Shown: positions 7,280 to 36,132 of the stretch, one piece after another | How the letters are laid out: every line of letters starts with the position of its first letter | Position numbering within the stretch: position 1 is the stretch's first letter | NCBI GenBank assembly: GCA_030679895.1 | Contig: JAUXSN010000047.1 | Span: 1,328-65,327 of the forward strand | Origin: Candidatus Moraniibacteriota bacterium | GTDB taxonomy: Bacteria; Patescibacteriota; Minisyncoccia; Moranbacterales; UBA11712 | Length of the DNA stretch: 64,000 bases | Direction: 5' to 3' | The notes under the pieces: model-generated | What the model was told of the DNA's origin: nothing | What the model saw: the letters and a program-made list of their open reading frames with translations, nothing else | Database searches by the model: none | Program-made: the position numbers and the translations under genes

Positions 7280-8398
7280 TTATACTAATTTGAGATTCGC
7301 GTCCGCCTCCAGATTTTTCCAATTATTATCGAATTTATTTTTATTCTTTGCCAGTTTATATTGATAATGCCCGGCTACGGCGATCATGGCGGCATTATCC
7401 AGCGAGTAGCCGGCAGCCGGCAACTGGTATTGGGAGTTTGGCAAAAGTCTTTTTATCGCTTCGCCAAGTTGTTTTCTTAACTCCTTGTTGGCCGAAACGC
7501 CGCCGCCGAGAAGAATGGTTTTAGGCTTATATTTTTTTGCCGCCTGAACCGTTTTATGGACCAAAACATCAATCACGGCCTGTTGGAAATCATAGCATAA
7601 AGCTGATTTTAATTTTACGCTTTTCAGTATTTTCGGATTATCCCGAATAGTATAGAGAACGGCTGTCTTGAGACCCGAGAAAGAAAAGTCCAGGTTTTTG
7701 GAATTTATCATCGGCCTCGGCAGTTGGAAGGTTTGACCTTGAGGAATTTCCCGATGAATAGTCGGGAAAGGGAAAGGTCGAACCTTGAATGATTTTCGGA
7801 ATTTATCTGCGATAGCGGATACAATTGGACCGCCGGGATACCCCAATCCTAGCATTTTTGCCACCTTATCAAACGCTTCTCCCGCCGCGTCATCGAGCGT
7901 CTGTCCGACAATTTTATAATCCAGATGTTTCTTCATCAAAATCAACTCCGTATGCCCTCCAGAAACGATAAGCGCCAGAACCGGGAATCTTATTTCCCCA
8001 ACATCGGATGTTAGGCTAAGCCGGTCGATAAAATTAGCATAAATATGACCGGATATATGATGAACGCCAACCAGCGGTTTTTTCCAGGCATACGCCAAAG
8101 CTTTAGCGGCATTCGTTCCAATGAGCAGAGCCGGAATGAGTCCCGGCCCCTGGGTGACCGCTATCAAATCGATATTCCCTGAAGAAATTTTGTTTTTCTT
8201 CAAAAAGCCCCGGAGCATCACAGGCAGATTTTTCAAATGTTCGCGAGCAGCCAAATTCGGAACCACCCCGCCGAAAGGGGCGTGGACTTTTGTTTGAGAT
8301 GAAACAAGGCTGTCAATCACCGAGAATCTATTTCTCGAAACATTCACCAGGGCGACGGCCGTATCATCGCAGGAAGTTTCAACGGAAAGAATACGCAT
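7280..8398 (-). CDS. tsaD: tRNA N6-adenosine threonylcarbamoyltransferase TsaD (Kae1/Gcp family)
   Basis: MRILSVETSCDDTAVALV..., GGVVPNLAAREH, HHISGHIYANF, LALIVSGGHTELIL. Start is moved to MRILS (ATG at complement 8396-8398). The ORF-track N-extension to 8506 is a read-through of an upstream repeat copy. The gene also contains an in-frame 61-nt palindromic element at 7728-7788. Confidence 0.9.
   Translation of the reverse strand: MRILSVETSCDDTAVALVNVSRNRFSVIDSLVSSQTKVHAPFGGVVPNLAAREHLKNLPVMLRGFLKKNKISSGNIDLIAVTQGPGLIPALLIGTNAAKALAYAWKKPLVGVHHISGHIYANFIDRLSLTSDVGEIRFPVLALIVSGGHTELILMKKHLDYKIVGQTLDDAAGEAFDKVAKMLGLGYPGGPIVSAIADKFRKSFKVRPFPFPTIHREIPQGQTFQLPRPMINSKNLDFSFSGLKTAVLYTIRDNPKILKSVKLKSALCYDFQQAVIDVLVHKTVQAAKKYKPKTILLGGGVSANKELRKQLGEAIKRLLPNSQYQLPAAGYSLDNAAMIAVAGHYQYKLAKNKNKFDNNWKNLEADANLKLV
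7728..7788. repeat. 61-nt near-perfect palindromic element (family A), in-frame inside tsaD
   Basis: AAGGTTTGACCTTGAGGAATTTCCCGATGAATAGTCGGGAAAGGGAAAGGTCGAACCTTGA. Outer arms AAGGTTYGACCTT/AAGGTCGAACCTT, inner hairpin TTTCCCGAY-GAATA-GTCGGGAAA. Translated as KVRPFPFPTIHREIPQGQT. Confidence 0.9.
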
Positions 8399-8441
8399 AT
8401 TTGATATTATACGGCAAAAGTTTAATTTTAGGAATTTCCAT

Positions 8442-8502
8442 AAGGTTCGACCTTGAGGAATTTCCCGACGAATAGTCGGGAAAGGGAAAGGTCGAACCTT
8501 GA
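8442..8502. repeat. second copy of family A palindromic element, intergenic between hup terminator and tsaD start
   Basis: 59 of 61 nt identical to the copy at 7728-7788. Confidence 0.9.
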
Positions 8503-8507
8503 TCACT

Positions 8508-14647: not shown

Positions 14648-15208
14648 ATGAAAATCCTCCCCCGCAAATTCTATTCCCGCCCTACATTGAAAGTCGCCCA
14701 GGATCTCCTCGGTTGTTTTCTTGTCCGCAAATACCGCGGAAAAATATGGCGCGCCATGATAACCGAAACCGAAGCCTATGTCGGCGAGAAAGATCTGGCC
14801 TGCCACGCTTCAAAAGGAAGAACTCCAAGGACGGAAGTGATGTATGGCGAGCCCGGCCACGCTTACGTCTATATGATTTATGGCATGTATCATTGTCTCA
14901 ACATCGTGACCGAAAAAAAAGATTTCCCCGCCGCGGTTTTGATACGCGCAGTGGAAATTATAGATAATCCCCCTCTCCTTAATAAGGAGAGGGTTGGGGT
15001 GAGGTTAAACGGCCCCGGAAAACTTTGCAAATTTCTGAAAATAGACAGGAAACTCAATAAATGGGATCTGACAAAAAAAGATAAATTATGGCTGGAACAC
15101 CGTGGCTCAAAAATTAAGCTGGATAAGATAAAAAAGTCTAAGCGTATAGGCATTGACTACGCCCAACACTGCCGGGAATCTTTGTGGCGGTTCACTTTAA
15201 ATTCCTAA
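14648..15208 (+). CDS. mpg: DNA-3-methyladenine glycosylase (Mpg/AAG family)
   Basis: ITETEAYVGEKDLACHASKGRTPRTEVMYGEPGHAYVYMIYGMYHCLNIV and NGPGKLCKFL match the Mpg fold signature. 186 aa. Confidence 0.85.
   Translation: MKILPRKFYSRPTLKVAQDLLGCFLVRKYRGKIWRAMITETEAYVGEKDLACHASKGRTPRTEVMYGEPGHAYVYMIYGMYHCLNIVTEKKDFPAAVLIRAVEIIDNPPLLNKERVGVRLNGPGKLCKFLKIDRKLNKWDLTKKDKLWLEHRGSKIKLDKIKKSKRIGIDYAQHCRESLWRFTLNS
14969..15006. repeat. 38-nt palindromic element (family C) in-frame inside mpg: CCCCCTCTCCTT-AAT-AAGGAGAGGG-TTGGGGTGAGGTT
   Basis: Perfect 10-bp hairpin plus a conserved 3' tail. Translated as NPPLLNKERVGVR. Second copy at 29417-29454. Confidence 0.9.
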
Positions 15209-28476: not shown

Positions 28477-30111
28477 TCAGTGCCCGAAGAAGCCTCGGGC
28501 GAGTTTGTCGGGGATTTGAATGAGAGTCGCACTTTTATCCGCGCAAAGTTTTTGGATTTCGCCATCATTGACGGAACCGGAAGTGGCAAAAATAGCCTTA
28601 ATTCCCGCATCGATCAGGACTTCAGGAGCGTCGGAAAAGGGGAAAAAGCTGTCGCTCGCCGCTACCGCGCCTTCTGATTCATGGCCGGCGTCTTTGGCGC
28701 GCTTGATGGCGAGCTCGCAGCAACCCACCCTGTCCTGCTGGCCAACCCCGTTTCCGATAAGTTTTCCGTCTCTGACTAAAGTTATCGTATTTGAATTTGA
28801 AGTCGCTGAAATCGCCCAGGCCAGGAGTATTTCAGATTTATTTTTTTCATCTATCTCGCCCTGAATTCTAATTTCCGGATGGTTGTAGTCTAAAACAAAA
28901 GTATAATTCGGCTGAGTTAGAAACCCTCCACGGACATAACGGAGTCTCTTCGTAGTATCGAAATTATTTTTATTCAAATTTTCCAGCGCCGGATTAACAA
29001 TAAAACGGCATTTATCTTTTTTGCGCCTCGAAAGCTCCAGCGCTTTTTCTGAAAATCCGGCTGTCACGATTCCGTCCAATAATCTTCTTTTTCCATTTTC
29101 CATTAAATGCGTAAGTAGTATTTCCGCTTCAGCCTCGTCAAAGTCAAAATTAAACATCGAGAGCCCCCCGAAAATGGCCCGCGGATCGCCTTCGACGACT
29201 TTTTTGATGACTTCAATTTTATCGTCGCCGTAGCTCGCCCCGCAACAATTGCCGTGCTTTACCGCCACCCCATAATATTTCGCGGAAACACTATTTATTT
29301 CGAACACCGCCGCAATATGCGTCAAAGTCTGAAGCATGCGGTCAATGTCGCAGATATTATTATAACTCGGCGCCATTTCAGTGAGAACTTTGAATTTATC
29401 AAGAGCCAGCGAATCACTCCCTCTCCTTGACAAGGAGAGGGTTGGAGTGAGGTTTGAATATAGTTTTCCCGGCGTTTGATAAGCGTTTTCGCCATACAAA
29501 GTTTCAGCAACCTGCTCACCAACTGCTCCGTTATACTTTTCTTTTGAATGAAATTTTGCCGACTCCAGGCAATATTTGGAAATAACGTATTCCGCTTTCG
29601 CCGCCAGCTCAATCCTTTCTTCCTTTGAAATATCGCCATTATTTTTCAGCTTCTTAACCACTTTTTCCCTGTCGCTCGGATCACAGATAACAATCCTTCC
29701 GCCTTTGGCCGCGGATCGGATCATAGCCGGTCCTCCGATATCTGTCGCTTCAATTACTGTTTCATAACTCGCATCCGATTTTGCAATCGCGTCTTCCAGC
29801 GGATACAGATCAACACAAACCAGATCAATAAACGGTATTTTTAGTTTTGCGAGCTCTTCCAAATCTTCCACAACTTCCGGCCTTGCCATGAGCCCGGCGT
29901 GAATTTCCCGCGAAAGCGTCACCACCCGATGGCCAAGAATAGCCTTTCCTCCCGCAATCTCCGAAACATCTTTAGCTTTTATTCCGTGCTCCGCCAAATA
30001 TTTCGCCGTCCCGCCCGAAGAAATAATCTCCCAGCCCAAATCAACCAAATTCTTGGCAAACTTTTCGATGTCTTGCTTATTGTAGACTGAAATTAATGCG
30101 GTTTTTTTCAT
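28477..30111 (-). CDS. purH: bifunctional AICAR transformylase / IMP cyclohydrolase PurH
   Basis: N-terminal MGS-like domain (MKKTALISVYNKQDI...SSGGTAKYL), then the AICARFT domain. 544 aa. Contains the family C palindromic element in-frame. Confidence 0.9.
   Translation of the reverse strand: MKKTALISVYNKQDIEKFAKNLVDLGWEIISSGGTAKYLAEHGIKAKDVSEIAGGKAILGHRVVTLSREIHAGLMARPEVVEDLEELAKLKIPFIDLVCVDLYPLEDAIAKSDASYETVIEATDIGGPAMIRSAAKGGRIVICDPSDREKVVKKLKNNGDISKEERIELAAKAEYVISKYCLESAKFHSKEKYNGAVGEQVAETLYGENAYQTPGKLYSNLTPTLSLSRRGSDSLALDKFKVLTEMAPSYNNICDIDRMLQTLTHIAAVFEINSVSAKYYGVAVKHGNCCGASYGDDKIEVIKKVVEGDPRAIFGGLSMFNFDFDEAEAEILLTHLMENGKRRLLDGIVTAGFSEKALELSRRKKDKCRFIVNPALENLNKNNFDTTKRLRYVRGGFLTQPNYTFVLDYNHPEIRIQGEIDEKNKSEILLAWAISATSNSNTITLVRDGKLIGNGVGQQDRVGCCELAIKRAKDAGHESEGAVAASDSFFPFSDAPEVLIDAGIKAIFATSGSVNDGEIQKLCADKSATLIQIPDKLARGFFGH
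29417..29454. repeat. second copy of family C palindromic element, in-frame inside purH (TCCCTCTCCTT-GAC-AAGGAGAGGG-TTGGAGTGAGGTT)
   Basis: 33 of 36 positions identical to the mpg copy. Translated on the minus strand as NLTPTLSLSRRG. Confidence 0.9.
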
Positions 30112-33210: not shown

Positions 33211-36033
33211 TTAGCGCATATAGCGCGCTGTCCACGTCTTCGCTCTCGCCAATTCCTTCGGCGTTCCCTCAAAAACGATCTCCCCGCCTTCATCTCCTCC
33301 CTCCGGACCAAGTTCGATTGCCCAATCCGACGCCTTGATCACATCCGGATTATGCTCGACCACCAGAACGGTGTTTCCTTTTTCCACCAGCTCGTCCAGA
33401 ATTTTGAGAAGTTTCGCCACGTCGTCAAAATGGAGCCCCACGGTCGGCTCGTCGAGAATATAGAGCGCTTTTCCGTCCGTGCGCCGCGCCAGTTCCGTCG
33501 CCAGCTTCACTCTTTGCGCTTCCCCGCCGGAAAGATTCATGGCTGATTGGCCCAGTTTCAAATATCCAAGGCCGACTTCATTGAGCTTTTTTAATTTTTC
33601 AGCCACCAACGGATAATTTGAGAAAAATGTGAGGGCGTAACTGACACTCATATCCAGCACCTCCGCGATATTGACTCCCCTGTATTCAATATCGAGAGTT
33701 TTCTGGTTATATCTTGTTCCCCGGCAGGCTTCGCAAGGAGTATAAATATCCGGCAGCAGATGCATCTCAATCTTTTTCTGGCCTTCCCCCTGGCAAATCT
33801 CGCAGCGTCCGCCCTTCATATTGAAACTGAACCGGGAAGGGGCATAACCGCGGTTTTTCGCTTCCGGCATTTCGGAAAATATGTCCCGAATATGCGAAAA
33901 TATTCCCGTATAGGTCGCCGCATTGGAACGCGGCGTGCGTCCGATAGGCGACTGGTCGATACTGATGACTTTTGAAATATTTTCCACGCCCCTTATCCTC
34001 TTATGCTTTCCCGGCAAGTCTTTGCTCCGATAAAAATGCCGGCTCAAAGCTTTGGCCAGAATATCCTGCATAAGGGAACTCTTTCCGGAACCGGAAACTC
34101 CGGCCATCACCACCAGTTTCCCGAGTGGAATTGAGACATTGATATTTTTGAGGTTGTTTTCCTCCGCTCCTTCAATCGTCATTTTTTTTCCGTTTCCAAT
34201 GCGATATTTTTTCTTCCTGAAAACTTTTCTCTTTCCCTTGAGATATTCTCCGGTTGAGGTCTTGGAGGAAAATATTTTTTTGTATGTTCCCGAGAAAATA
34301 ATCTCCCCGCCTTCTTCTCCGGCTCCCGGACCCATATCGATTATCCAGTCCGCCGACCGCATTATTCGGGGATCATGCTCAACCACAATAACGCTGTTTC
34401 CTTCTTTTTTGAGTTTTTGCAAAACTTCGATCAGCCTTTCCGTGTCTCTTTCATGAAGACCGACGGATGGCTCGTCCAGCACGTAAAGAATTCCCGTGAG
34501 TCCGGATCCCACTTGCGTGGCAAGGCGCACCCGTTGCGCTTCCCCGCCGGAAAGAGAATTGGCGTTTCGGGATAGCTTGAGATACCCCAAACCGGCTTCG
34601 CAAAGGTTCTCGATCGTATTTTCCACTTCCCTGAAAATTTCTCTTACTATATTTTTCTCGTTTTCGGAAATATCGGTTTCTTTTTCTATGGCCAGAAATT
34701 TATTTTTCAGGTGGTCGAGGCTGATATTGGACAGATCATCGATTGACATTCCGTTTATCAATACTGCCAGGGCTTCCTCGCGCAGTCTTTTTCCGCCGCA
34801 TTTGGGACAAGTTTTGATTATCATATACTTTTCGATTTCGCTTCGGATATATTCCGTGCCGGCTTCTTTGTATTTTCGCTCTAGCATCGGAACCACCCCT
34901 TCAAAACCAATCGCGCCGCCAGCCCCTCCTCTTTCTTCCCCCGATTTTTCTCCAAAAATGATTACTTCCAGCGCTTCAGGTTTTATTTTTTTCAGCGGCT
35001 GATTCAGGGAAAATCCGTATCTAGAAGATAATTTCTCCAAATTTTTGAGGTGCCCATTTTGGCCCAGATTGCGCGTACCCATATTTTTCCAGGGACGGAT
35101 CGCTCCTTCGTTCAGGCTCAAATTCCGGTTGGGAATGACCTGGTCTATATCGACATCAAGCTTTGTTCCGAGTCCCGAGCAGGCTGGGCATGATCCTTCA
35201 GGATTATTGAAGGAAAAAAGGCGGGGAGTTATTTCTTCAAGGATAAAATTGCAATCCGGACAGATCAGATATCGGTTATATTTTCTGTCTTCCATTTCGT
35301 CTTCGAAACGGATAATGACTTCTCCCCGGCCCAGCTTCATAGCCGTTTCTATTGAGTCTATCAGCCTTTCCCGATCCTGGAATTTATTGTTTATTGTTAT
35401 CCGGTCAATCACCAGCTCCGCCGTTTTAGCGGCGTTCAAAAGATCATCCTGCCGCATCGCATCCCTTATGGCCATTATCTTGCCGTCCAGCCTCGCTCTG
35501 GCATATCCCAGCTGATTGAATTCAGTTAGCATTTCCCGGACATTTTTTCCGGATCCGGAAGGCTCCGACAGGATTGCGATTTGCGCGTTCCTATTTTTCG
35601 CTTCCGCGATGATCTCGTCCGCCACTTCGTTTGATTGTTTTTCATTCAGTTCTTTTTGGCATTTCGGGCAATGCGGTTTTCCGATTTTCGCGTACAGAAT
35701 CCGGAGATAATCATAGACCTCCGTCATGGTGCCGACAGTTGAGCGCGGACTGCGATTCACATTGGTCTGGTTGATCGCGATGACGGGAGAAAGATTTTCA
35801 ATTTTGTCCACTTCCGGCTTTCTGGCTACATTCAAGAACTGCCGGGCATAGGCCGATAAATTTTCCACGTAGCGCCTGTGTCCCTCGGCAAAAATCGTGT
35901 CGAAAGCCAGCGACGATTTCCCCGATCCCGAAAGTCCGGTGATGACCACCAGCTTGTCGCGGGGAATTTTGACATCAACGTTTTTCAGATTATTCGCCCG
36001 CGCGCCTTTCACTATAAGATGCGATTTGTCCAT
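33211..36033 (-). CDS. uvrA: excinuclease ABC subunit A (UvrA)
   Basis: 940 aa. Two ABC ATPase modules ([14 protein letters not shown]; [10 protein letters not shown]), zinc-finger cysteines, and LSGGEAQR signature motifs. Confidence 0.95.
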
Positions 36034-36132
36034 ATTTTATCCGCCTCCCTCTTCTTAATAAGGAAAGATGAGCGAGGTTGTTGAAATGAGGTAAAAAGAA
36101 AACAGCTAATTGCTAATTGTATAGTAGAAAAT

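What the first reader, a model, noticed from the sequence alone, without database searches (positions are those of the whole stretch)
14969..15006. Family C: 10-bp perfect hairpin plus conserved 13-nt tail inserted in-frame in mpg and in purH
The mpg copy is CCCCCTCTCCTT-AAT-AAGGAGAGGG-TTGGGGTGAGGTT, encoding NPPLLNKERVGVR. The purH copy at 29417-29454 is TCCCTCTCCTT-GAC-AAGGAGAGGG-TTGGAGTGAGGTT, encoding NLTPTLSLSRRG on the opposite coding strand. 33 of 36 positions are identical between two genes of unrelated function 14 kb apart. The asymmetric tail TTGGRGTGAGGTT gives the element a polarity. Both copies face the same way on the chromosome, so they are opposite relative to their host genes.
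Basis: seen in the sequence. Interest (0 to 1): 0.7.

Follow-up and report, generated by a model that had tools for sequence, protein, structure and literature searches.

The report
Triplex-motif repeat inserted inside housekeeping genes
The two look-alike 36-base segments are copies of a known, very widespread bacterial repeat (the BoxC / "intrastrand triplex motif" class), and the new point is that in this Candidate-Phyla-Radiation bacterium and its relatives the repeat sits in-frame inside essential genes, adding about 12 amino acids to variable loops.

Summary
Window 14969-15006 (in mpg, + strand gene) and 29417-29454 (in purH, - strand gene) share a 10-bp perfect hairpin plus a conserved tail. 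They match at 33 of 36 positions and both lie on the + strand.

The tail mirrors the G-rich hairpin arm. One strand could therefore fold into a 10-triad purine-motif triplex: 10/10 triads in mpg, 9/10 in purH. This is the architecture of the BoxC/PIT/TM(ECO) repeats of E. coli and cyanobacteria (Holder 2015, PMC4666352). The two share the sub-sequence GGAGAGGGTT[A/G]GGGTGAGG.

The exact 33-nt core occurs in more than 119 stretches of GTDB genomes: cyanobacteria, many Patescibacteria, Gammaproteobacteria, Bacteroidota and others. It also occurs in IMG/VR contigs.

Most orthologues of PurH and Mpg lack the segment. Filled purH genes are polyphyletic yet share one codon junction. The Mpg loop carries at least 7 different insert families.

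In Patescibacteria 22/39 copies lie inside long ORFs (LeuRS, PolA, UvrB and others). In cyanobacteria only 4/67 do.

Best reading: a selfish, copy-pasted, structure-forming miniature repeat tolerated in-frame in permissive loops. The spreading mechanism is unknown. It is a known kind in a new context.

The parts
14969..15006 (+). Copy 1 of the triplex-motif repeat, inside mpg, with the G-rich strand as the sense strand. Layout: conserved 5' CCC 14969-14971 (the last C is also the first base of the C-arm); C-arm CCCTCTCCTT 14971-14980; loop1 AAT 14981-14983; G-arm AAGGAGAGGG 14984-14993; loop2 TTG 14994-14996; third strand GGGTGAGGTT 14997-15006. Encodes PPLLNKERVGVR (residues 108-119).
   Evidence: Searches give the sequence and the chance test. 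One search gives 10/10 Watson-Crick pairs and 10/10 purine-motif triads. One search gives a DNA hairpin of -10.1 kcal/mol. defines the unit boundaries.
29417..29454 (+). Copy 2, inside purH, with the C-rich strand as the sense strand. Layout: 5' CTC 29417-29419 (the last C is also the first base of the C-arm); C-arm 29419-29428; loop1 GAC 29429-29431; G-arm 29432-29441; loop2 TTG 29442-29444; third strand GAGTGAGGTT 29445-29454. Encodes NLTPTLSLSRRG on the - strand.
   Evidence: Searches give the sequence and the chance test. One search gives 10/10 pairs and 9/10 triads. One search gives -12.5 kcal/mol. Searches give the filled versus empty orthologue alignment.
36047..36082 (+). Decayed third copy in the same orientation, in the 5' region of uvrA. 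On the - strand it reads AACAACCTCGCTCATCTTTCCTTATTAAGAAGAGGG. The adjoining GGGAGG lies 9 nt before the uvrA ATG.
   Evidence: (family D5, 69% identity). One search gives 6/10 pairs and 4/10 triads. One search shows about 45 extra nt compared with syntenic loci L190 and L189.
14648..15208 (+). Host gene mpg (DNA-3-methyladenine glycosylase, Pur_DNA_glyco). The insert falls in the loop between LIRAVEI and NGPGK.
   Evidence: PF02245; the empty state is a 7-aa loop in 42 of the 64 orthologues my pattern parsed, and classes 53 of 120 as empty. AlphaFold models residues 107-118 as coil between two strands, at block pLDDT 68-71.
28477..30111 (-). Host gene purH (AICARFT/IMPCHase). The insert follows YGENAYQTPGKLY-S, in a 4-5 aa variable linker.
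   Evidence: PF02142, PF01808; the insert falls in a gap against PDB 4ehi..
33211..36033 (-). uvrA, the gene immediately downstream (on the - strand) of the decayed third copy.
   Evidence: ORF. Searches show synteny, with UvrA Pfam hits in L189 and L190.

Best explanation
The element is a dispersed repeat of about 37 nt in the BoxC / PIT / 'TM' class (potential intrastrand triplex motif).

Anatomy. A C-rich arm and a G-rich arm form a 10-bp hairpin. After a 3-nt loop comes a second G-rich segment that mirrors the first arm (G opposite G, A or T opposite A). One DNA strand can therefore fold back twice into a purine-motif triple helix. A weak two-tetrad G-quadruplex is an alternative fold.

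Shown:
- The two window copies, plus one decayed copy, belong to a family whose identical 33-nt core is scattered through genomes of several phyla.
- At both window sites most orthologues lack the segment.
- In Patescibacteria the family commonly sits in-frame inside housekeeping genes.

Inferred:
- The element behaves as selfish, copy-pasted DNA.
- Its folded single-stranded form is the unit that is recognised or propagated, probably when DNA is single-stranded during replication or repair. The trans-acting activity is unidentified.
- Copies survive inside genes only where they land in permissive surface loops and the frame is kept. Five of the six frames of the unit are open.
- Such copies are then translated as about 12 extra residues.
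- Small, gene-dense Patescibacteria genomes under weak purifying selection accumulate intragenic copies, as Rickettsia does with RPEs.
For: 1. Architecture. The mpg copy has 10/10 pairs and 10/10 triads, and the purH copy 10/10 and 9/10. These are the only two such motifs in the window, against 0 in 20 shuffles.

2. Match to a described class. E. coli TMECO copies read CCCTCTCCCTTGAGGGAGAGGGTTAGGGTGAGGGT (PMC4666352 Table 1). They share GGAGAGGGTT[A/G]GGGTGAGG with this element, including the same T.A then A.A triad order.

3. The third strand is a general feature.
- Among 73 hairpins in IMG/VR contigs selected on the hairpin alone, 46 have a flanking segment with at least 9/10 triads. The control rate is 2%.
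- 18 further motifs with 15 other stem sequences in Patescibacteria loci all obey the mirror rule, against 0 in shuffles.

4. Dispersal.

5. Presence/absence.
- purH: 5 filled orthologues against about 110 empty, and the filled ones are polyphyletic.
- mpg: 13 orthologues carry this element and 53 are classed empty.

6. The nucleotide sequence is conserved, not the peptide. Four different reading frames are used across host genes: TSPQPSPxxGEG, NLTPTLSLxRRG, PHPNPLLxKER and PLLxKERVGVR.

7. Intragenic habit in Patescibacteria. 22/39 copies lie inside long ORFs, against 4/67 in cyanobacteria (Fisher p=1e-8). Pfam confirms the hosts as LeuRS, DHFR, CarB, AtpG, PNPase, GatA, AspRS, PolA, UvrB, UvrC, MiaA, Tgt and others.

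8. Orientation bias. In 20/22 intragenic Patescibacteria copies the G-rich strand is the transcription template (p=0.0016 against a 0.4 expectation). This fits selection against the structure-forming strand being displaced during transcription.
Against: - No transposase, target-site duplication or excision intermediate was seen.
- Holder et al. found no link between TMECO and mobile elements, and saw no triplex in vivo by DMS footprinting.
- The unit is 37 nt, not a multiple of 3. Net size changes differ between sites (+24, +27, +36), so 'insertion' is messier than a cassette model.
- The same-site recurrence in purH could reflect recombination between lineages rather than transposition.
- The copies counted share ancestry in some cases (for example L137/L152), so the statistics overstate independence.
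- The exact-core search pattern biases what was sampled.
- The orientation rule has exceptions that fit neither a replication nor a transcription explanation (L088, L153).
Confidence: 0.7

Rival explanations
1. The element is a miniature non-autonomous transposon. It is mobilised in trans by a single-strand-specific HUH/Y1 transposase (REP/RAYT or IS200/IS605 type), which recognises the hairpin plus the asymmetric tail. This is a specific version of the mobility step in the best explanation.
For: - The anatomy of a hairpin plus a polar flank resembles Y1-transposase substrates (my own knowledge of IS608 and REP/RAYT, not tested here).
- Orientation is strand-biased.
- Small inserts are nested inside the hairpin loop or arm, as in L188 and in Mpg orthologues P0187, P0229 and P0142.
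- REPIN work lists small dispersed repeats as candidates for the same mechanism (PMC3116915).
Against: - The window shows no RAYT or IS200-like gene, though it was not systematically scanned.
- The window has no inverted doublets (REPINs).
- No conserved flanking tetranucleotide or target-site signature appears beyond C-Y-C and T.
- TMECO in E. coli is not associated with transposons.
- REPs are extragenic.
Confidence: 0.2
2. The element is a cis-regulatory nucleic-acid element kept for the host's benefit. Possible roles are an mRNA hairpin that modulates stability or translation, a Shine-Dalgarno / anti-Shine-Dalgarno mimic causing ribosome pausing, or a DNA structure that controls transcription or replication.
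For: - The RNA hairpins are stable, at -19.6 and -20.3 kcal/mol.
- The G-arm AAGGAG(AGGG) is Shine-Dalgarno-like.
- The decayed copy upstream of uvrA supplies GGGAGG 9 nt before the ATG.
- Kaplan 2016 proposed a G-quadruplex/hairpin/duplex switch for the E. coli relatives (PMC5100583).
Against: - PIT/BoxC elements showed no promoter or terminator activity and no gene-class association (PMC4666352).
- Copies lie at arbitrary positions inside many unrelated ORFs and in intergenic DNA.
- Close orthologues do without them.
- Purine-motif triplexes do not form in RNA.
Confidence: 0.1
3. The element is a selected protein module: the 12-residue peptide itself is functional in Mpg and PurH.
For: - The segments are in-frame.
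- They lie in loops, modelled as coil between two strands in Mpg.
- They are retained in several orthologues.
Against: - Different frames, and so unrelated peptides, are used in different genes.
- The nucleotide core is invariant while most orthologues lack the segment.
- The same DNA occurs intergenically.
- Other unrelated repeat families occupy the same Mpg loop.
Confidence: 0.05
4. The similarity is due to chance, or is an assembly artefact.
For: None beyond the short length of the element.
Against: - Shuffles expect 0.00-0.01 hits.
- The same Mpg sequence was assembled independently from a Logan run.
- The core is present in finished chromosomes such as Nostoc sp. C117 and Scytonema HK-05.
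Confidence: 0.01

Closest known systems
BoxC / PIT (potential intrastrand triplex) / TM(ECO) repeats of E. coli, other Enterobacteria and cyanobacteria (Holder et al. 2015, PMC4666352; earlier Bachellier, and Hoyne/Maher, as cited there)
   Same: - Three-block layout: C-arm, loop of 3-6 nt, G-arm, 3-nt loop, mirrored G-arm.
- Shared sequence GGAGAGGGTT[A/G]GGGTGAGG, with the same T.A:T and A.A:T triad positions.
- Length of about 34-37 nt.
- Multicopy and dispersed, with variable loops and conserved stems.
- Abundant in cyanobacteria.
   Different: - Each arm ends in A/T instead of G/C, a co-varying change (CCCTCTCCTT / AAGGAGAGGG / GGGTGAGGTT). It therefore fails the published TMECO regular expression and lacks the four G3 tracts of a canonical G-quadruplex.
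- TMECO is 'always intergenic' in E. coli. Here, and in Patescibacteria generally, copies lie in-frame inside genes.
Rickettsia palindromic elements (RPEs; Ogata et al. 2000, as summarised in PMC10969869)
   Same: - Selfish palindromic repeats inserted in-frame into unrelated housekeeping genes of a small, reduced genome.
- Translated as extra peptide segments compatible with protein fold.
- Also found in intergenic DNA.
   Different: RPEs are about 100-150 bp, restricted to Rickettsia, and unrelated in sequence. They have no mirror or triplex third arm and are not shared across phyla.
REP / REPIN elements with RAYT transposases (PMC3116915)
   Same: Short (20-40 nt) hairpin-forming dispersed repeats with polarity, thought to move as single-stranded hairpins.
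   Different: REPs are extragenic, typically occur as inverted doublets, and are linked to a RAYT gene. None of these features was seen here.
Cyanobacterial small dispersed repeats (SDR; Elhai et al. 2008, known to me only through citations in PMC3116915 and PMC5861425)
   Same: Very small (21-27 nt) hairpin repeats in Nostocaceae with nested insertions, proposed to be mobile.
   Different: SDRs are reported as confined to Nostocaceae, whereas this core is cross-phylum. The SDR sequences could not be compared because the paper is not held.

Membership tests
BoxC/PIT/TM intrastrand triplex motif class (ITxF definition: stems 6-15 nt, loops 1-6 nt, at most 1 mismatch) | [quoted passage not shown] | tested here: met
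   One search gives 10/10 pairs plus 10/10 triads for mpg, and 10/10 plus 9/10 for purH, with loops of 3 and 3 nt. The triad rules are as stated in PMC7015867 and PMC4666352.
BoxC/PIT/TM intrastrand triplex motif class | Over-represented, multicopy, with conserved stems and variable loops | tested here: met
   Searches compare the window with shuffles. Searches show more than 119 genome stretches. One search shows loop1 variable and flanks unconserved.
TMECO sensu stricto (5'-CCCTCNCCC N3-6 GGGNGAGGG N3 GGGNGAGGG) | Match to the published pattern | tested here: not met
   One search finds 0 matches in the window. Each of the three blocks differs at its A/T end (T, A, T instead of C, G, G). The change co-varies and keeps the triad.
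TMECO sensu stricto | Intergenic location | tested here: not met
   Both window copies are inside ORFs. In Patescibacteria 22/39 copies are inside long ORFs.
BoxC/PIT/TM class | The single strand actually folds into a triplex (CD/NMR in vitro) | not testable with these tools
   ViennaRNA models only the hairpin. Holder et al. showed the triplex in vitro for the E. coli sequence only.
Rickettsia palindromic elements | About 100-150 bp palindromic unit belonging to one of the RPE sequence families | tested here: not met
   The unit is about 37 nt, and the sequence is of the BoxC type.
Rickettsia palindromic elements | In-frame insertion in unrelated protein-coding genes, with orthologues lacking it | tested here: met
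REP/REPIN-RAYT | Inverted doublets (REPINs) and an associated RAYT gene flanked by REPs; extragenic | tested here: inconclusive
   All three window copies are direct and far apart, and two are intragenic. The window was not systematically scanned for a Y1 transposase, and only 64 kb of the genome is available.
MITE | Terminal inverted repeats plus a target-site duplication | tested here: not met
   The filled versus empty alignments show no duplication. The inverted repeat is the body of the element, not its termini.
Known RNA families (Rfam 15) | Covariance-model match at gathering score | tested here: not met
   One search finds only tRNAs and DUF3800-IX elsewhere in the window.

The most novel reading that the evidence does not exclude
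A 37-nt, cross-phylum element actively copies itself into the coding sequence of essential genes in Candidate-Phyla-Radiation bacteria. Its transmissible form is a folded single-stranded DNA triplex. It repeatedly hits the same loop codons, as shown by the purH junction shared by lineages only 56% identical and by the mpg loop colonised by at least 7 families. This would make it one of the smallest mobile elements known. It would also be a general source of the loop insertions that characterise CPR proteins, with its orientation policed by transcription or replication.
Probability: 0.3. Interest if true: 0.8.

Novelty: new variant of a known kind. Interest (0 to 1): 0.6.

Why it matters
BoxC/PIT/TM repeats have been known since the 1990s, but neither their function nor how they spread has been established. 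They were described as strictly intergenic.

This window and its relatives show three things:
- The same motif class, with an identical 33-nt core, is shared by cyanobacteria, Patescibacteria and other phyla.
- In Patescibacteria the motif is tolerated in-frame in aminoacyl-tRNA synthetases, polymerases, repair enzymes and purine-synthesis enzymes.
- It appears and disappears between close orthologues at fixed loop positions.

This gives natural filled/empty pairs in conserved genes, so two open questions become directly testable. One is how the repeat is copied. The other is whether the triplex or G-rich structure forms in vivo, which the strand bias relative to transcription bears on.

It also offers a concrete source for some of the loop insertions seen in CPR proteins, parallel to the Rickettsia RPE story. 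For annotation, peptides such as TSPQPSPxxGEG, NLTPTLSLxRRG, PHPNPLLxKER and PLLxKERVGVR are signatures of this repeat, not of protein homology.

Tried and rejected
- Rfam at gathering thresholds found nothing at the element. tRNA and tmRNA are unrelated.
- A literature search by sequence string first returned only primer noise. A second string pair found the key papers.
- Elhai 2008 (SDRs) is not held, so a direct SDR comparison was not possible.
- A search for papers on in-frame palindromic repeats in CPR found nothing relevant.
- The strict TMECO pattern gives no match.
- I guessed a second hairpin family (CCTGCCCG..CGGGCAGG) for the nested inserts. It has no match in the window or in any fetched locus, so the idea was dropped.
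- Cultured-phage records gave no blastn match to the 38-mer. This may be due to the low-complexity filter.
- The idea that orientation follows replication rather than transcription fits the window, where all three copies are on the negative-skew + strand. It is not supported by the two other 'same-sense' intragenic copies, which lie in co-oriented gene blocks with positive skew.
- An NJ tree of the short Mpg protein is too poorly resolved to count independent gains.
- The AlphaFold model of Mpg is only moderate (mean pLDDT 65). It is used only to say that the insert is modelled as coil between two strands.
- DNA for the nested Mpg variant P0187 could not be fetched.

Full report
OBSERVATION

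Window 14969-15006 reads CCCCCTCTCCTT-AAT-AAGGAGAGGG-TTGGGGTGAGGTT. It lies inside a 186-aa ORF on the + strand (14648-15208), which is a Pur_DNA_glyco protein, Mpg. Window 29417-29454 reads TCCCTCTCCTT-GAC-AAGGAGAGGG-TTGGAGTGAGGTT. It lies inside a 544-aa ORF on the - strand (28477-30111), which is PurH.

The copies are 33/36 identical. The hairpin pattern and the arm-plus-tail pattern each occur twice, against 0.01 and 0.00 expected in shuffles.

A third, decayed copy in the same orientation lies at 36047-36082, immediately upstream of uvrA. It falls within about 45 nt that are missing from two syntenic relatives.

WHAT THE TAIL IS

The tail is not an arbitrary flank. After a 3-nt loop (TTG) it is the mirror image of the G-rich arm. 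Read antiparallel to AAGGAGAGGG, the segment GGGTGAGGTT places G opposite G, and A or T opposite A, at all ten positions. These are the G.G:C, A.A:T and T.A:T triads of a purine-motif (reverse-Hoogsteen) triplex (rules in PMC7015867). The purH copy has one mismatched triad. A purpose-written finder detects only these two motifs in the window, and none in 20 shuffles.

As plain hairpins the DNA folds at -10.1 and -12.5 kcal/mol. The mRNA versions fold at about -20 kcal/mol.

IDENTITY

Searching the literature for the sequence strings led to Holder et al. 2015 (PMC4666352). That paper re-examines the E. coli BoxC repeats, also called PIT elements, as 'TMECO' intrastrand triplex motifs with the pattern CCCTCNCCC-N3-6-GGGNGAGGG-N3-GGGNGAGGG. 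An example is CCCTCTCCCTTGAGGGAGAGGGTTAGGGTGAGGGT.

The present element shares GGAGAGGGTT[A/G]GGGTGAGG with these, including which A is matched by T and which by A. It differs by a co-varying A/T position at the end of each of the three blocks, so it fails the strict pattern.

Holder et al. report several things about the E. coli motif:
- It forms a stable triplex in vitro.
- No triplex could be shown in vivo.
- It has no promoter or terminator activity and is not linked to known mobile elements.
- It is always intergenic.
- It is associated with local genomic instability.

Kaplan et al. 2016 (PMC5100583) describe the same E. coli sequences as a G-quadruplex/hairpin/duplex switch. The present variant has only G2 tracts at its ends, so a quadruplex would be weak.

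DISTRIBUTION

The hits include:
- Nostoc, Rivularia, Nodularia, Anabaena, Scytonema, Calothrix and Tolypothrix.
- About 37 loci from Patescibacteria: Moran-, Nomura-, Falkow-, Komeili-, Doudna- and Portnoybacteria, Saccharibacteria and Gracilibacteria.
- Gastranaerophilales, Agitococcus and Ewingella.
- Kapaibacterium and Ignavibacteriae, Saprospiraceae, Zixibacteria and Myxococcota.

The hairpin alone occurs in 66 IMG/VR contigs. In 46 of 73 instances a third strand with at least 9/10 triads follows within 14 nt, against 2% in controls.

Flank conservation in the Patescibacteria copies defines the unit as C-Y-C + core + T, about 37 nt. Nothing is conserved beyond that. In Nostoc the core is embedded in a longer repeat.

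In the Patescibacteria loci 18 further motifs, with 15 other stem sequences, all obey the mirror rule, against none in shuffles. So the third strand co-varies with the stem across families. This is the strongest computational argument that the folded three-block structure, and not merely one sequence, is under constraint.

ARE THE WINDOW COPIES INSERTIONS?

The source is a Candidatus Moranbacteria MAG.

purH. Among the 120 best PurH homologues, about 110 have a constant 4-5-residue variable linker after ..PGKLY. Five carry the element at exactly the same junction and in the same orientation (TAT-NNN | RACCTCAC..):
- the window;
- P0002, which has an extra 21-nt nested insert and a compensatory C:G to T:A stem change;
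- P0009;
- P0069;
- P0042, which is only 56% identical, is decayed, and shows a clean +36 nt.

In an NJ tree with the insert columns removed, the three filled genes included in that alignment are polyphyletic. P0002 is sister to the empty P0003. The window groups with the empty P0004 and P0005. P0009 groups with the empty P0016. The constant linker length in the empty genes argues that empty is the ancestral state. That leaves two options: recurrent gain at one site, or spread by recombination through the highly conserved flanks.

mpg. The empty state of the loop between LIRxVxI and NGPGK is 7 residues plus T. This was seen in 42 of the 64 orthologues the pattern parsed, and classes 53 of 120 as empty. 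Thirteen orthologues carry this element.

The same loop also carries at least six other insert families. These include ISSSPARGEELEEGWE, FSPLPEGR.., CRRPTST..TSDVY, RPHSSLAARSD..RGRTASRH and NPSPxLPLRKGE... The first of these is, at the DNA level, another perfect mirror motif: TCCTCCCC..GGGGAGGA-GTTA-GAGGAGGGG.

Filled versus empty DNA alignments show a net +27 nt in purH and +24 nt in mpg, with no target-site duplication.

AlphaFold (moderate quality, mean pLDDT 65) models Mpg residues 107-118 as coil between two strands. In PurH the segment falls in an alignment gap against solved structures.

A GENERAL PATESCIBACTERIAL HABIT

I asked whether each exact-core copy lies inside a stop-to-stop ORF of at least 120 codons, with at least 20 codons on each side. 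The results:

| Group | Copies inside long ORFs | Random positions in the same loci |
|---|---|---|
| Patescibacteria | 22/39 (56%) | 73% |
| Cyanobacteria | 4/67 (6%) | 66% |
| Other phyla | 5/18 | 74% |

Patescibacteria differ from cyanobacteria with Fisher p=1e-8.

Pfam confirms the hosts as LeuRS, DHFR, CarB, ATP synthase gamma, PNPase, GatA, AspRS, DNA polymerase I, UvrB, UvrC, a Mur ligase, MgsA, MiaA, CCA-adding enzyme, an IleRS-type synthetase, a pseudouridine synthase, Tgt and HsdR.

Four different frames are used. They give TSPQPSPxxGEG, NLTPTLSLxRRG, PHPNPLLxKER and PLLxKERVGVR. So it is the DNA that is conserved, not a peptide.

In twenty of the 22 intragenic copies the C-rich strand is the sense strand, and so the G-rich strand is the transcription template (p=0.0016 against the 0.4 expected from open frames). 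The mpg copy in the window is one of the rare exceptions.

All three window copies have the G-rich strand on the + strand. That is the strand with negative GC skew, opposite to most genes. This hinted at a replication-linked orientation. The two other 'same-sense' copies do not fit that idea, so the cause of the bias is unresolved.

MECHANISM

Shown:
- The element is a member, by architecture and shared sequence, of the BoxC/PIT/TM class.
- It is copied to many unrelated sites and genomes.
- It is present or absent between orthologues.
- In Patescibacteria it is translated in-frame within variable loops.

Inferred:
- It behaves as selfish DNA.
- Its folded single strand (hairpin plus third strand) is what is recognised or propagated.
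- Intragenic copies are the survivors of a filter for permissive loops and preserved frame. Five of the six frames are open.
- The strand bias reflects selection against displacing the structure-forming strand during transcription.

Not known:
- The copying activity.
- Why the same codon junction is hit repeatedly.
- Why the 5' C-Y-C is conserved.
- Why the core is identical across phyla.

A Y1/HUH-transposase route (REP/RAYT-like) is a reasonable specific guess but has no direct support here. Regulatory, protein-module and chance explanations are each contradicted by several results (see the rival explanations).

VERDICT

The kind is known.

To my knowledge and in the searchable literature, the following are new:
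- in-frame residence in essential genes of Candidate-Phyla-Radiation bacteria;
- the recurrent-site and hot-spot behaviour;
- the strand bias;
- the cross-phylum identity of the core.

These features closely parallel the Rickettsia RPE phenomenon (PMC10969869). Interest is 0.6.

Noticed in passing
window 7728-7788 and 8442-8502: A different 61-nt palindromic repeat, with two copies 97% identical. Both lie inside the stop-to-stop ORF 7280-8506 (-), which is TsaD (PF00814). One copy is in-frame inside the protein (..FKVRPFPFPTIHREIPQGQTFQ..). The other lies at or above the N-terminus. This is a second in-frame palindromic family in the same window.
   Followed up: partly
window 54529-54597 (-): Rfam match to DUF3800-IX RNA (51.1 bits, gathering score 36.8).
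   Followed up: no
L188 (purH orthologue P0002), around gene codons 219-239: The orthologous copy of the element carries a 21-nt in-frame nested insert (CCCGCCAAATGGACGGGCAGG) inside its C-arm/loop. It also has a compensatory C:G to T:A change in the stem. Mpg orthologues P0187, P0229 and P0142 show similar nested peptides.
   Followed up: partly
Mpg orthologues P0121-P0240, loop between LIRxVxI and NGPGK (window 14950-15010): This one loop carries at least 7 unrelated insert families in about 67 of 120 orthologues. At least two of the families are perfect mirror/triplex motifs. The loop is an insertion hot spot.
   Followed up: partly
L130:5541-6032 (Gammaproteobacteria MAG CAZKKV010000010.1): A 308-aa ORF is built largely from tandem in-frame copies of the element (ELTSPQPSPSQGEG.. 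repeated at least 7 times). The repeat appears to have generated a repetitive protein.
   Followed up: no
window 36034-36082: The decayed copy upstream of uvrA contributes GGGAGG 9 nt before the ATG. The syntenic loci L190 and L189 lack the segment and show no comparable Shine-Dalgarno sequence at that place.
   Followed up: partly
L070-L093 and other Nostoc loci: In Nostoc the 33-nt core is embedded in a longer conserved repeat (tataccagatgagaaacaagattcttgctc-core-ttttacaaggctttttacactcattgagat). This suggests a MITE-like composite that uses the same core.
   Followed up: no
PurH orthologues P0045, P0022, P0037 and P0020 (alignment A1): These carry other lineage-specific in-frame inserts at different PurH sites, for example RTLTRHPFASAKATADRSGGTLSQREREKM in P0045. 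They look like translated repeats.
   Followed up: no
window 29414-29418 with 29445-29449: In the purH copy the single tail substitution (G to A) makes AGTGA complementary to the upstream flank TCACT. This extends the predicted hairpin by 5 bp. It may be coincidence.
   Followed up: no
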